Shown here piece after piece: positions 10,701 to 13,700 of a stretch of DNA of 64,000 nt. Numbering within the stretch: the stretch's first letter is position 1; each line of letters starts with the position of its first letter. This DNA is from Escherichia coli (GTDB lineage Bacteria; Pseudomonadota; Gammaproteobacteria; Enterobacterales; Enterobacteriaceae): the NCBI RefSeq assembly GCF_003334335.1, contig NZ_QOWQ01000009.1; one strand, given 5' to 3'. A program made the position numbers.

Positions 10701-13700
10701 CTGCCAGCGCCATGGAATAGCTATCCATATCAATCGCTTCTTCTTCAAGGCTGACGTTGCCTCGAGGATCGGCATAAGTGCCACGCAAAATCGCGTAATC
10801 CACTTTGAAAGGGCGATAACGAAGTTTGGTTTCACCGTCGATTTCAATCAGTTCTACCAGCTCGTCGGTAGTGCATTCATTCGACTTACCGCCGCCATTG
10901 CGTGGATCAACAAACGATCCCAGCCCAACGTGGGTAAAAAGCCCCGGACGTCCGGCGCCGATCTCCCGTAGCAGTGCCTGAATCACGCCACCAGGAAAGC
11001 AGTAGGCTTCAATCGTGTTATTTTTTACCAGCGCCTGCATTTTGGGCGACCAGGTAAAGTGCCCGGCAATAATGCGTTTGAGCATCTCTGCGTGCGCAAA
11101 ACGATTAGTGCCTTTGCAGTCGCGATCGCCAATACCCAGCGAGTGGATTAGCGTCAGGTCGCGAGGGTGTCCGGTTTGCAGGAAACGCGCTTCAATAGCA
11201 GCCAGAATATGGTCGGCTTCCACCATACCGCCGCCGTTACCGCTAATAGCAATAGTCGCACCGTCCTGAATTTGCGCCGCCAGTGCCTCGGCGGTTGTTA
11301 TCTTACGCATACAATTTCCTTATTGATTATGGAAGCTCACGCTACTTTTTTCGGCAAAGGCGCGCGTCGCCTGCTGGCAATCCTGAGTGGCAGACATTAA
11401 TCCGGCCAGTAGCTGGTGCGGGTAATCGGCATGTTTATTTTCCAGTGCCAGAATCAGTTGCTTAATATGCGCCAGTGCCACCGGGCCGCATTTTTCCAGC
11501 TGCGCTAACTGGTTCGCCATCCAGCTTTCCACCTGTTCTTTTTCTACCACTTCATCAATTAAATTCGCCGCCTGGGCTTCCTGCGCCGTCAGGCGTTTAC
11601 CCAGCATCAGCATCTGGCGACCGACCACCGGACCAACCTGATTAAGCACACGTTCAATGCCCATCCAGCCAGGCACCATGCCGAGCATCACTTCCGGGTT
11701 AGAGAATTTCGCGCCGGGGCGGGCAATACGAATATCGCAGCACAAGGCCAGTTCAATACCACCGCCGATGGTATGACCGTTGAGATTCGCAACGGTTAAT
11801 TGGGGTAAGTTTCGCAGGCGATTAAAAACGTCATTACCGCGTTTAATCCATTTTCTGCCCATATCTAATGGCGAATAGGCCGACCACGATTTAATATCGC
11901 CGCCCGCACAAAAGAATTTATCGCCGGTTGCCGTTAATTCGACTAATCGTAATGTGGTGTCGTTTTCAATTTCATTTAAATAATGGTCGAGAGATTCGAT
12001 CATCTCTTCGTTAATAGCATGACATTTATCTTCACGGTTCAATGTCAGGCGGCAGGAAGCCGCCGCTCTGCTGAACAGAACGGGTTGGTCACTCATGATC
12101 ATTCCTTAACAATAATGCGCGATGCGATCGACGCTAATATCCAGCGTGCTGTTAATATCTTTTTGCCACCAGTACGGCGAGAATATTTCCAGTTCAATAG
12201 CGCCATTAAATCCGGCGTTTTCAACCAGCCGACGAATTGACGGAATATTGATGACGCCATCTCCCGGCATACCACGGTCATTGACCAGATCAGTGGTCGG
12301 CACTAACCAGTCGGAAACATGAAACGCGAGGATGCGTTTTCCGGCACGCAGGATCTGACTGGCGAGATCCGGATCCCACCAGACGTGATAAACATCCACC
12401 GCCACGCCGAGGCCAAACTCACCATCGGGATCGAGTTCATCACACCAGTCCAGCGCCTGGCGTAACGTGCACAGGCAAGAGCGATCGGCAGCTGTCATCG
12501 GGTGCAGTGGCTCCAGCGCAATTGGCACGCCGACATCTTTCGAATGTGGCAGCAACTGGCGAATCCCTTGTTTCACTTGTTCTCGCGCTTCATATAGATC
12601 TTTAGTGCCCGTTGGCAGACCGCCAACCACCTGCATATAACAGGCGGCGTTAAGCACCGCTGCGTCGTCCAGCGCCCGGCGGTTATCATCAATCGCCAGT
12701 TTGCGTTCCGCCAGTGTCGGCGCGGTGTAGTAAGTGCTACGGCACAAACCGGAAACGCTCATGTTACTGGCGGCAAGCTGGTGGGCGATTTGCTGGAGAT
12801 CTTCACCTTGCAACTCCCTGCGCCAGGGAGCAATCGCGCCAATACCACGCGCGGCGCAGGCATCAATAATGGCGGGTAGCGGCGTTTTATAGCCCAGTGT
12901 TGCGGTATTGATACTGAATAAATCCGGGCGTTGTAACAGATCTCTCATGATTCAGCCTCAGAAGCGCGGCATACTTAAGCCGCCGTCGATGGCGACCGCC
13001 TGACCACAGGTGTAAATCAGTTTACCTTCCGCCATCGCGCGGACAGTGGAAGCAATATCAGCCGGATAACCCCAACGTCCCCACGGCACCAGACCTTTGG
13101 CAATCAGTTCGTCGTAATAAGCCGTTGCCGGAATAGTCATATCAGTTTTGATGAGACCTGGGCGCACTTCATAAACGCCAATTTGTTCATTACAAAGGCG
13201 AGCTGCAAATAGACGAGCAGCGGCAGAAACGGCGGTTTTGGCAATGGTGTATTCGCCGCGATTCATCGCCAGCATGATGGCGTTGATGGAACTGACGAAA
13301 ATAATCGAGCGGTGCGGCAGTTCCGCTTCCGGTTTCGGCTGTGCCAGTAAACGCTTACTGAATGCCTGAGCAAGGAAGAACGGCGCGCGGGTGTTAATGG
13401 CAATGTTTTGATCGAAGCTGTCTGGTTCGAGGTCGAGGAGGTCACCGCGTTTTTTCACTGAAATGCCTGCGTTGTTGAGCAGGCAGTCCAGACGTCCCCA
13501 CAGGTTTTGCGCCGCGTCGAGCATCTCTTCATGCAAGGAGAGATCGCCGACATCGGCAGGGAAGCAAATCACTTCCACGCCTTCAGCTATACATTCTTGT
13601 TGTGTGATATGCAGTTTTTCTACGCTGTCGGCATCGGGAAGATCGTTAATCAGCAGGTTAAATCCGCCACGAGCAAGCTCCAGCGCACAGCCCTTTCCAA

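What the first reader, a model, noticed from the sequence alone, without database searches (positions are those of the whole stretch)
12106..12948. Xylose-isomerase-like TIM-barrel enzyme in an otherwise acyl-CoA operon
This fold family includes sugar-phosphate epimerases, inosose and 3-dehydroshikimate dehydratases and hydroxypyruvate isomerase. Finding it next to a crotonase and a CoA-transferase is an unusual combination. It hints that the substrate is a polyhydroxylated or cyclic carboxylate, with a dehydration or epimerisation step before or after CoA activation.
Basis: inference. Interest (0 to 1): 0.55.

Follow-up and report, generated by a model that had tools for sequence, protein, structure and literature searches.

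The report
Orphan TIM-barrel enzyme in E. coli operon
The gene is real and encodes a metal-dependent sugar-isomerase-type enzyme of unknown function, in an unstudied eight-gene operon that 58% of E. coli strains carry (K-12 does not) and that probably processes an imported sugar-acid-like compound.

Summary
Observation confirmed. Window 12106-12948 (- strand) is a 280-aa xylose-isomerase-like TIM-barrel gene (Pfam E 1.8e-37) under strong purifying selection (dN/dS 0.04-0.08).

The window is E. coli. The gene is second in an operon: SDR, TIM, crotonase, family-I CoA-transferase, FrdA/NadB-like flavoprotein, TRAP transporter. A TetR gene (intact ytfA) is divergent. The island lies between rplI and ytfB. 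3145 of 5426 complete genomes carry the gene; K-12 keeps only the ytfA pseudogene.

The enzyme belongs to the uncharacterised SMc04130 subfamily (PDB 3QC0, E 1e-84). Its nearest characterised relative is inosose isomerase IolI. It matches no housekeeping family.

Across seven lineages with close homologues, SDR, flavoprotein, TetR and an MFS or TRAP transporter (carboxylate-type where classified) are always present. Crotonase and CoA-transferase occur in only four. Distant homologues sit with Gfo/Idh/MocA, DUF993 and enolase-like genes, mostly without CoA enzymes.

So the operon is not essentially an acyl-CoA operon, and the TIM enzyme most likely acts on a free keto-acid made by the SDR. Substrate and reaction remain unknown, and I found no literature on them. 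Moderately interesting.

The parts
12106..12948 (-). The finding: 280-aa xylose-isomerase-like TIM-barrel enzyme of the SMc04130/3QC0 subfamily. Predicted metal ligands are E146, D185, H210 and E254.
12958..13749 (-). SDR dehydrogenase (NCBIfam PRK12745, 417 bits) and first gene of the operon, 9 bp upstream of the TIM gene. TGxxxGxG and YxxxK motifs are present. It is the most persistent neighbour of the TIM gene.
11320..12102 (-). Crotonase (enoyl-CoA hydratase). Both catalytic Glu are present (GGGIE, NPEV). Nearest solved relatives are 3-hydroxypropionyl-CoA dehydratase and short-chain crotonase.
9769..11310 (-). Fused family-I CoA-transferase, YdiF-like (PDB 2AHU, E 1e-113).
7691..9772 (-). 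693-aa FAD_binding_2 flavoprotein, distantly FrdA/NadB/TfrA-like. It has no covalent-FAD His, lacks the FrdA H232 and R287 equivalents, and keeps H355 and R390. No Fe-S or anchor subunits are encoded nearby.
7194..7670 (-). TRAP small permease (DctQ).
5850..7151 (-). TRAP large permease (DctM).
4826..5797 (-). TRAP solute-binding protein (DctP). Nearest solved relatives are hexuronate binders (4OVR, 4X8R, 4N8Y, 4N15, 4N91).
13962..14609 (+). Divergent TetR/AcrR regulator (TetR_N + TetR_C_29). It is the intact counterpart of the K-12 pseudogene ytfA.
13818..13839 (.). Perfect palindrome ATCAACCA-N6-TGGTTGAT in the regulator/operon intergenic region. It is the probable TetR operator.
4736..4762 (.). 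GC-rich hairpin between the end of dctP and the end of rplI. It is the probable bidirectional terminator that closes the operon.

Best explanation
The ORF encodes a functional divalent-metal enzyme of the xylose-isomerase-like TIM-barrel superfamily. It belongs to the uncharacterised SMc04130 subfamily, whose nearest characterised relative is the inosose isomerase IolI.

It is the second gene of an eight-gene operon: SDR, TIM, crotonase, CoA-transferase, FrdA/NadB-like flavoprotein, TRAP-QMP. The divergent TetR (YtfA) probably represses the operon through the palindrome at 13818-13839.

Proposed mechanism (inferred unless marked otherwise):
1. The TRAP system imports a hexuronate-like, polyhydroxylated, probably ring-shaped carboxylate.
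2. The SDR oxidises one secondary hydroxyl to a ketone. An NAD+ preference is guessed from the Asp at the end of strand beta-2.
3. The TIM enzyme binds this free keto-acid. The metal site is E146/D185/H210/E254; the conservation of these ligands is shown by alignment. Invariant arginines at the barrel mouth (R43, R70) would bind the carboxylate. The enzyme forms the enediolate next to the carbonyl and moves the carbonyl or inverts the adjacent centre, an IolI-type ketol isomerisation or epimerisation. Less probably it expels a beta-hydroxyl, as IolE and AsbF do.
4. The flavoprotein then oxidises or reduces the C-alpha/C-beta bond next to a carboxylate.
5. The YdiF-like CoA-transferase and short-chain crotonase form an optional downstream branch that handles a small 3-hydroxy or enoyl acid.

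The TIM step happens on the free acid, independently of CoA.
For: - Real, selected enzyme: Pfam E 1.8e-37, dN/dS 0.04-0.08, 76 invariant columns across 14 homologues.
- Metal ligands: E146, D185, H210 and E254 align with the UlaE positions (hhalign) and with the matching IolI motifs. That these positions bind the metal in UlaE and IolI is from my memory of the published structures.
- Operon structure: gene gaps run from a 4-bp overlap to 52 bp, and there is a unique conserved palindrome.
- Coupling to a dehydrogenase: an SDR is adjacent or nearby in every informative close-homologue locus, and SDR-TIM also occurs as a bare pair. Distant homologues carry Gfo/Idh/MocA instead (63 of 76 loci), which parallels IolG with IolI or IolE.
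- CoA independence: crotonase and CoA-transferase are absent from three of seven close lineages. They are also absent from most distant loci despite the highly conserved active-site columns.
- Carboxylate or sugar-acid substrate: the TRAP SBP is 1e-71 to 1e-56 to hexuronate binders and keeps both carboxylate-binding Arg and the Asn (ligands from PMC7660916 and PMC11668362). The E. coli MFS variant and the Sodalis carrier best match the TIGR00893 sugar-acid transporter family, below its cut-off. Distant loci contain an enolase-superfamily gene and a DHDPS-like DUF993.
Against: - No substrate was identified, and nothing here tests catalysis.
- An isomerase role leaves the always-present flavoprotein unexplained.
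- The operon has no aldolase, thiolase or kinase to link it to central metabolism.
- The SBP differs from the glucuronate and galacturonate binders at a ligand-contacting Glu (Gln70) and in the N-terminal loop.
- The Salmonella and Brenneria carriers resemble aromatic-acid transporters (PcaK-like).
- Lineages without a linked CoA-transferase could use an unlinked one.
Confidence: 0.45

Rival explanations
1. The TIM enzyme is a dehydratase in an oxidation, dehydration, ene-reduction triad (reductive dehydroxylation). The SDR makes a ketone, TIM eliminates the beta-hydroxyl (IolE/AsbF chemistry) to give an enone or deoxy-keto acid, and the soluble FrdA-like flavoprotein reduces the C=C. CoA-transferase plus crotonase then allow a second dehydroxylation beta to the carboxylate, following the logic of the carnitine cai system. 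The substrate, for example quinate/shikimate or a uronate, would serve facultative anaerobes as an electron sink.
For: - It explains why the flavoprotein always accompanies SDR and TIM in the close clade.
- It explains why a flavodoxin gene follows the Sodalis operon.
- It explains why the distant clade carries DUF993 instead. DUF993 is DHDPS-like, and that family acts on 2-keto-3-deoxy acids.
- Most hosts named here are, to my knowledge, facultative anaerobes or gut bacteria.
- The Salmonella and Brenneria operons carry PcaK-like transporters.
Against: - By sequence the enzyme is closer to the isomerase IolI than to any dehydratase.
- The flavoprotein lacks the FrdA proton-donor Arg in the MAFFT alignment.
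- The direction of the flavoprotein reaction is unknown.
- There is no experimental link to quinate, shikimate or uronates.
Confidence: 0.3
2. The TIM enzyme acts on a CoA thioester, for example by isomerising or epimerising a hydroxy-keto-acyl-CoA made by the crotonase and SDR. This would be the first CoA-ester-using member of this fold.
For: The TIM gene is flanked by the SDR and crotonase genes with 3-9 bp gaps. In the gut MAG it travels as TIM-crotonase-CoA-transferase, apart from the SDR and flavoprotein genes. The operon has beta-oxidation-like steps but no thiolase. Several invariant Arg residues could bind CoA phosphates.
Against: Three of seven close lineages, and most distant loci, have no linked CoA-transferase, ligase or crotonase, yet the TIM sequence is highly conserved. 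No known member of the fold uses CoA esters (my knowledge; the neighbours are all sugar, cyclitol or DNA enzymes).
Confidence: 0.08
3. The TIM gene has no functional connection with its neighbours. It would be a hitchhiking gene or a generic sugar-phosphate epimerase that merely sits in the island.
For: RefSeq gives only the generic name 'sugar phosphate isomerase/epimerase family protein'.
Against: The gene co-occurs with the same partners in Gamma- and Betaproteobacteria despite rearranged gene order. The genes are packed for translational coupling. Purifying selection is equal across the operon genes. When the operon decays, TIM and the CoA-transferase are broken together.
Confidence: 0.04

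Closest known systems
SMc04130 of Sinorhizobium meliloti (PDB 3QC0/3JU2) and the 7VPF 'xylose isomerase'
   Different: These are structures deposited without an assigned function. Rhizobial homologues sit with Gfo/Idh/MocA, DUF993 and an enolase-like gene plus an ABC sugar transporter. The E. coli gene instead sits with SDR, flavoprotein, crotonase and CoA-transferase.
IolI, inosose isomerase of Bacillus subtilis (PDB 1I60/1I6N)
   Different: Identity is only about 16%. IolI acts on a neutral cyclitol, whereas here all the transporters point to a carboxylate. There are no other iol genes nearby.
Keto-sugar-acid and ketose epimerases or isomerases of the same fold (IolO 5-keto-L-gluconate epimerase, OtnI/YgbM, UlaE, D-psicose/tagatose 3-epimerases, YcjR)
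   Same: Same fold and the same E-D-H-E metal site. They use enediolate chemistry next to a carbonyl, and some act on acid sugars.
   Different: NCBIfam scores are 26-28 bits against cut-offs of 300-353, and identity is 13-21%. This gene is not a member of any of these families.
Dehydratases of the same fold (IolE, 3-dehydroshikimate dehydratases AsbF and QuiC1)
   Different: There is no sequence-level match, and no downstream protocatechuate or iol genes are present.
E. coli carnitine (cai) pathway: CoA-transferase, crotonase and enoyl-CoA reductase used as an electron sink
   Same: The same logical trio is present in the operon: CoA transfer, crotonase dehydration or hydration, and a flavin oxidoreductase. 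Both are found in a facultative anaerobe.
   Different: The parts are not homologous. CaiB is a family-III transferase and CaiA is an acyl-CoA dehydrogenase (my knowledge). The cai system has no SDR and no TIM-barrel enzyme.
Acyl-CoA route of 2-deoxyribonate catabolism in Klebsiella michiganensis (PMC6365646)
   Same: It is a precedent for a sugar acid being degraded through CoA-bound intermediates.
   Different: That cluster has a CoA synthetase, a beta-hydroxyacyl-CoA dehydrogenase, a thiolase and glycerate kinase. It has no TIM-barrel enzyme and no FrdA-like flavoprotein.

Membership tests
Xylose isomerase-like TIM barrel superfamily (Pfam PF01261, AP_endonuc_2) | Significant match to the family HMM over most of its length | tested here: met
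   E 1.8e-37, model positions 1-243 of 249.
Xylose isomerase-like TIM barrel superfamily (Pfam PF01261, AP_endonuc_2) | (beta/alpha)8 barrel fold | tested here: met
Xylose isomerase-like TIM barrel superfamily (Pfam PF01261, AP_endonuc_2) | Glu-Asp-His-Glu divalent-metal site at the C-terminal ends of strands 5-8 | tested here: met
   E146, D185, H210 and E254 are invariant. They align with UlaE E155, D185, H211 and E251 and with the IolI motifs. The ligand identities in UlaE and IolI are from my memory of the published structures.
SMc04130 subfamily (PDB 3QC0/3JU2/7VPF) | High full-length sequence similarity and shared subfamily motifs | tested here: met
   E 1e-84 and 1e-60 over residues 11-280. 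The profile search gives E 1e-112.
SMc04130 subfamily (PDB 3QC0/3JU2/7VPF) | Typical genomic context of Gfo/Idh/MocA + DUF993 (+/- enolase-like) + TetR | tested here: not met
   None of the 13 close-homologue loci has Gfo or DUF993, against 63 and 69 of the 76 distant loci. Only the TetR is shared. The E. coli gene therefore represents a distinct context clade within the subfamily.
Hydroxypyruvate isomerase (TIGR03234) / 5-keto-L-gluconate epimerase IolO (NF041099) | Score at or above the curated NCBIfam cut-off | tested here: not met
   26.4 bits against 353, and 28.3 bits against 300.
3-Dehydroshikimate dehydratase (AsbF/QuiC) and inosose dehydratase IolE | Sequence-level family match | tested here: not met
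3-Dehydroshikimate dehydratase (AsbF/QuiC) and inosose dehydratase IolE | Dehydratase activity on a keto-cyclitol or keto-acid | not testable with these tools
   This needs an enzyme assay.
Endonuclease IV (Nfo), the housekeeping AP endonuclease of the same fold | Sequence match to Nfo | tested here: not met
Endonuclease IV (Nfo), the housekeeping AP endonuclease of the same fold | Housekeeping distribution (present in all strains) | tested here: not met
   The gene is accessory, present in 58% of complete E. coli genomes.
Inosose isomerase IolI | Orthology-level similarity and an iol operon context | tested here: not met
   Identity is 16% and the profile E-value 3e-11. No iol genes are present in the operon. 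IolI is the closest relative, but this gene is not a member of its family.

The most novel reading that the evidence does not exclude
The operon encodes a previously undescribed reductive-dehydroxylation (electron-sink) pathway in enteric bacteria for a dietary or host ring carboxylate such as quinate/shikimate or a uronate. It would combine SDR oxidation, TIM-barrel dehydration or isomerisation, a soluble fumarate-reductase-like ene-reductase, and a CoA-transferase/crotonase module. If the substrate were quinate or shikimate, this would give a genetic handle on the long-known but enzymatically unassigned conversion of these acids by gut microbes to cyclohexanecarboxylate and hippurate precursors.
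Probability: 0.12. Interest if true: 0.75.

Novelty: new variant of a known kind. Interest (0 to 1): 0.45.

Why it matters
Over half of sequenced E. coli genomes carry this tightly packed operon under purifying selection. It has escaped study because K-12 retains only the regulator pseudogene ytfA.

Its TIM-barrel enzyme belongs to a very large subfamily (more than 7,700 clusters at 90% identity). The subfamily has three crystal structures but no assigned reaction.

The combination of SDR, TIM barrel, FrdA-like flavoprotein and an optional CoA module matches no pathway I could find. Identifying the substrate would do three things:
- annotate thousands of genes;
- define a strain-variable nutrient or electron-sink niche of E. 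coli, Salmonella and gut Succinivibrionaceae-like bacteria (a family guess for the gut MAGs, not tested);
- supply a ready TetR/operator sensor pair.

Tried and rejected
**Literature.** All ten searches found nothing on this operon or subfamily. The terms covered 7VPF, SMc04130, DUF993, ytfA with TRAP, combinations of the product names, the six RefSeq protein accessions, and PDB codes 3QC0, 3JU2, 4DNH and 4DA9. Only the TRAP-SBP ligand papers were useful.

**Klebsiella deoxyribonate pathway.** I tested whether this is the acyl-CoA deoxyribonate pathway. I rejected it because the gene set differs: that cluster has a thiolase, CoA synthetase and glycerate kinase and no TIM enzyme.

**Known families.** Assignment to a housekeeping or other known family (Hyi, IolO, UlaE, Nfo, IolE, AsbF) was rejected on scores.

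**RNA elements.** I looked for a riboswitch or leader RNA upstream of the operon and found none.

**Technical problems.** The first co-occurrence pass used greedy ORF calling and failed in high-GC genomes, where shadow ORFs masked real genes. I redid it with all ORFs and then with targeted tblastn. The repeat finder missed the operator palindrome; the terminator scan and a pattern search found it.

**Non-homologous replacements.** I considered the flavoprotein a replacement for the acyl-CoA dehydrogenase of the Pseudomonas-type loci. I dropped this because the flavoprotein also occurs without any CoA-transferase. It alternates with DUF993 instead.

**SBP ligand.** I could not settle the ligand from residue conservation. 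Both carboxylate-binding Arg and the Asn are kept, but Glu is replaced by Gln70 and the N-terminal loop differs.
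Full report
**What is there**

The window is E. coli chromosome. A 9.9-kb stretch around the finding is 100% identical to several complete genomes. It lies between rplI and ytfB-fklB-cycA.

The reported coordinates match an ATG-started 280-aa ORF on the minus strand exactly. Its only Pfam hit is PF01261, xylose isomerase-like TIM barrel, E 1.8e-37. RefSeq calls it 'sugar phosphate isomerase/epimerase family protein'.

It is the second gene of a tightly packed minus-strand operon. Gene junctions range from a 4-bp overlap to a 52-bp gap.
- SDR, 12958-13749
- TIM, 12106-12948
- crotonase, 11320-12102
- fused family-I CoA-transferase, 9769-11310
- 693-aa FAD_binding_2 flavoprotein, 7691-9772
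- TRAP DctQ, DctM and DctP, 7194-4826
- a hairpin terminator at 4736-4762

A TetR_N/TetR_C_29 regulator is transcribed divergently at 13962-14609. The intergenic region holds a perfect palindrome, ATCAACCA-N6-TGGTTGAT (13818-13839). It is unique in the window and conserved in all E. coli variants. Its core also occurs in E. albertii and in the equivalent intergenic region of two Paraburkholderia loci. I take it to be the operator. No Rfam element lies in the operon.

**Population picture**

The TIM gene is single-copy in 3145 of 5426 complete E. coli genomes (58%), with alleles down to about 94% identity. Two island variants exist at the same site.
- The TRAP variant, seen in the window. About 1448 genomes match at least 80% of the 9.9-kb query.
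- A variant with the same five enzyme genes but an ACS-family MFS carrier and a HipA-type toxin module.

K-12 has yjfZ and the pseudogene ytfA in place of the operon. This explains why the operon is unstudied. Some E. coli and Shigella lineages carry a decayed copy, with TIM truncated to 207 aa and the CoA-transferase split. One strain has IS1 inserted in the TIM gene.

Where the genes are intact, selection is strong. dN/dS is 0.04-0.08 for TIM and 0.035-0.06 for the SDR, crotonase and CoA-transferase.

**Which enzyme family**

- Art22
- STM4435
- ketose 3-epimerases
- QuiC1
- YgbM/OtnI
- YcjR
- IolE
- C-glycoside deglycosidases
- AsbF

All of these are at 11-21% identity.

A profile of 14 homologues reaches only IolI (E 3e-11) and Art22 among named proteins. 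NCBIfam gives only 26-28-bit hits to hydroxypyruvate isomerase and IolO, against cut-offs of 300-353. So this is not a housekeeping or otherwise named enzyme.

E146, D185, H210 and E254 are invariant. They align with the metal ligands of UlaE and with the IolI motifs. The ligand identities in those proteins are from my knowledge of the published structures. Invariant residues sit at the C-terminal ends of nearly all predicted barrel strands, including R43 and R70. I read those two arginines as an anion (carboxylate) site; this is inference.

The subfamily is large. 7777 clusters at 90% identity score E 1e-10 or better.

**Co-occurrence**

I scanned one genome per species and looked up contigs for selected homologues. 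I then scored twelve partner families within 9 kb of the TIM gene in 89 loci. The loci fall into two clean groups.

*Close homologues (at least 58% identity).* Thirteen loci sampled seven informative lineages:
- Escherichia
- Sodalis
- Brenneria
- Salmonella
- a Rhodocyclaceae genome
- two human-gut MAGs

Two more loci were cut by contig ends. Every informative lineage has the SDR, the roughly 690-aa flavoprotein, the TetR_C_29 regulator and a transporter. The transporter is a TRAP system, an ACS-type MFS or a PcaK-like MFS.

Crotonase and CoA-transferase are present in four lineages: Escherichia, Sodalis, Rhodocyclaceae and one gut MAG. In that gut MAG the order is rearranged to TIM-ECH-CoAT | TetR | SDR-FAD-SDR-TRAP. 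They are absent from Salmonella, Brenneria and the other gut MAG. A bare SDR-TIM pair also occurs.

*Distant homologues (about 50% identity; 76 loci, mostly soil Alpha- and Betaproteobacteria).*

| Partner | Loci of 76 | Source |
|---|---|---|
| DUF993 (Pfam E 1e-180; PDB 4DNH, uncharacterised; weak DHDPS-like match around a GIK motif) | 69 | |
| Gfo/Idh/MocA dehydrogenase | 63 |, 75 |
| TetR | 53 | |
| Enolase-superfamily gene | 23 | |

A Pseudomonas/Burkholderiaceae subset instead has choline-dehydrogenase-like GMC plus ALDH | TetR | CoA-transferase | short-chain acyl-CoA dehydrogenase-SDR-DUF993-TIM.

Across both groups the TIM sequences share 76 invariant columns.

The association with a crotonase and a CoA-transferase is real and recurrent, but it is not the core of the system. 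The invariable partner of the TIM enzyme is an NAD(P)-type dehydrogenase, either SDR or Gfo/Idh/MocA. This is the arrangement known for IolG with IolI or IolE. The second most constant partner is either the FrdA-like flavoprotein (enteric clade) or DUF993 (soil clade).

The catalytic columns are conserved between contexts with and without CoA enzymes. The TIM reaction is therefore most likely carried out on a free acid, not on a thioester.

**Nature of the substrate**

All the transporters I could classify carry carboxylates.
- The TRAP binding protein is 1e-71 to 1e-56 to a block of solved SBPs. Of these, 4X8R is glucuronate-bound and 4N8Y is galacturonate-bound. 4N91 and 4MHF are glucuronate and galacturonate binders. 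4N15 was the template used to model the glucuronate binder STM3169 (PMC11668362 and PMC7660916).
- The two carboxylate-binding arginines (R146, R166) and the Asn (N206) are conserved. However, a ligand-contacting Glu is Gln70, and the N-terminal loop differs. I conclude only 'hexuronate-like'.
- The MFS of the second E. coli variant and of Sodalis best matches the sugar-acid carrier family TIGR00893, below its cut-off.
- The Salmonella and Brenneria carriers are PcaK-like.

Together these fit a six-membered-ring hydroxylated carboxylate, such as a uronate or a hydroaromatic acid like quinate or shikimate. It is not shown.

**The other enzymes**

- *SDR.* It matches NCBIfam PRK12745 (417 bits). 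Its nearest structures are uncharacterised structural-genomics entries.
- *Crotonase.* Both catalytic glutamates are present. It is closest to 3-hydroxypropionyl-CoA dehydratase and short-chain crotonase.
- *CoA-transferase.* It is YdiF-like (1e-113). Together with the crotonase, this points to short-chain substrates for the CoA module.
- *Flavoprotein.* It is a remote member of the FrdA/NadB/TfrA clade. In alignment it lacks the covalent-FAD His and the equivalents of FrdA H232 and R287. It keeps H355 and R390. It has a large insertion and a C-terminal extension, and no Fe-S partner is encoded. I read it as a soluble enzyme acting next to a single carboxylate, in an unknown direction. In Sodalis a flavodoxin gene follows the operon.

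**Mechanism I commit to (confidence 0.45)**

Import by the TRAP system comes first. The SDR then oxidises a secondary hydroxyl. The TIM enzyme forms a metal-assisted enediolate on the free keto-acid. This gives a ketol isomerisation or epimerisation, as in IolI. The flavoprotein step follows, and the CoA-transferase/crotonase branch is optional.

- *Shown:* the fold, the conserved metal site, the subfamily, the operon structure, selection, and the co-occurrence pattern.
- *Inferred:* the order of steps, the substrate class, the reaction type and CoA independence.

The main rival (0.30) is that TIM is the dehydratase of an oxidation, dehydration, ene-reduction triad. That rival explains the obligatory flavoprotein better, and also the DUF993 alternative, since DHDPS-type enzymes act on 2-keto-3-deoxy acids. 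It is less well supported by sequence proximity.

A CoA-ester substrate (0.08) and an unrelated hitchhiker gene (0.04) are unlikely.

**Comparison with known systems, and novelty**

The enzyme is a member of the PF01261 superfamily and of the SMc04130 subfamily. It is not a member of any functionally defined family I tested. The operon resembles the cai system in logic (CoA transfer, crotonase, flavin oxidoreductase) and the iol system in its dehydrogenase+TIM pair, but it is homologous to neither as a system. The Klebsiella acyl-CoA deoxyribonate route is a precedent for CoA-bound sugar acids, but it uses different genes. Ten literature searches found no description of this operon.

I rate it a new variant of a known kind. 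It is an orphan but ordinary-looking catabolic or redox operon with an unusual enzyme mix. I give it moderate interest (0.45). Interest would rise if the substrate proves to be a diet- or host-derived ring acid used as an electron sink.

Noticed in passing
window 13818-13839: Perfect 8+8 palindrome ATCAACCA-N6-TGGTTGAT between the TetR gene and the operon. It is unique in the window and conserved across E. coli island variants. The core AACCA-N6-TGGTT recurs in E. albertii and in the CoA-transferase/ACAD intergenic region of two Paraburkholderia loci (L007, L014). It is the probable operator of YtfA-type regulators.
   Followed up: partly
L087 (K-12 MG1655 4426628-4428095), equivalent to window 4800-14600: K-12 has yjfZ (DUF2686) and the pseudogene ytfA where this strain has the eight-gene operon and an intact TetR. 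The K-12 pseudogene is therefore the remnant of this system's regulator.
   Followed up: yes
L092 (E. coli 95-3322), locus 1320-4502: A second island variant at the same chromosomal site. The five enzyme genes are the same (dS about 0.2-0.3), but an ACS-family MFS transporter replaces the TRAP system, and an HTH plus HipA-type toxin pair sits next to rplI.
   Followed up: partly
L084 (E. coli/Shigella lineage), locus 10001-12960; strain LR-33 (hit H11): The operon decays in some lineages. In L084 the TIM gene is truncated to 207 aa and the CoA-transferase is split into 151-aa and 339-aa pieces. In strain LR-33 an IS1A element is inserted in the TIM gene.
   Followed up: partly
L010 8752-9927 and 69 of 76 distant loci: DUF993 (PDB 4DNH, uncharacterised) is the commonest neighbour of distant TIM homologues. 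It shows a weak DHDPS-like match around a conserved GIK motif, which could be a Schiff-base lysine. It may be an undescribed class-I aldolase or dehydratase family.
   Followed up: partly
window 60229-61740 (+): Low-GC (0.35) 503-aa ORF with no NCBIfam hit, lying between a YhcH/YjgK-family gene (59645-60106) and an ornithine carbamoyltransferase gene (61909-62922). It looks like a horizontally acquired gene of unknown function.
   Followed up: partly
window 3193-3277, 23076-23198, 26550-26729, 35713-35791, 41954-42031, 52208-52323: Rfam matches elsewhere in the window: the RpsF leader, ES239 sRNA, STnc450 and ES036, two naRNA4 copies, and a magnesium riboswitch. All are known elements and none is related to the operon.
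   Followed up: no
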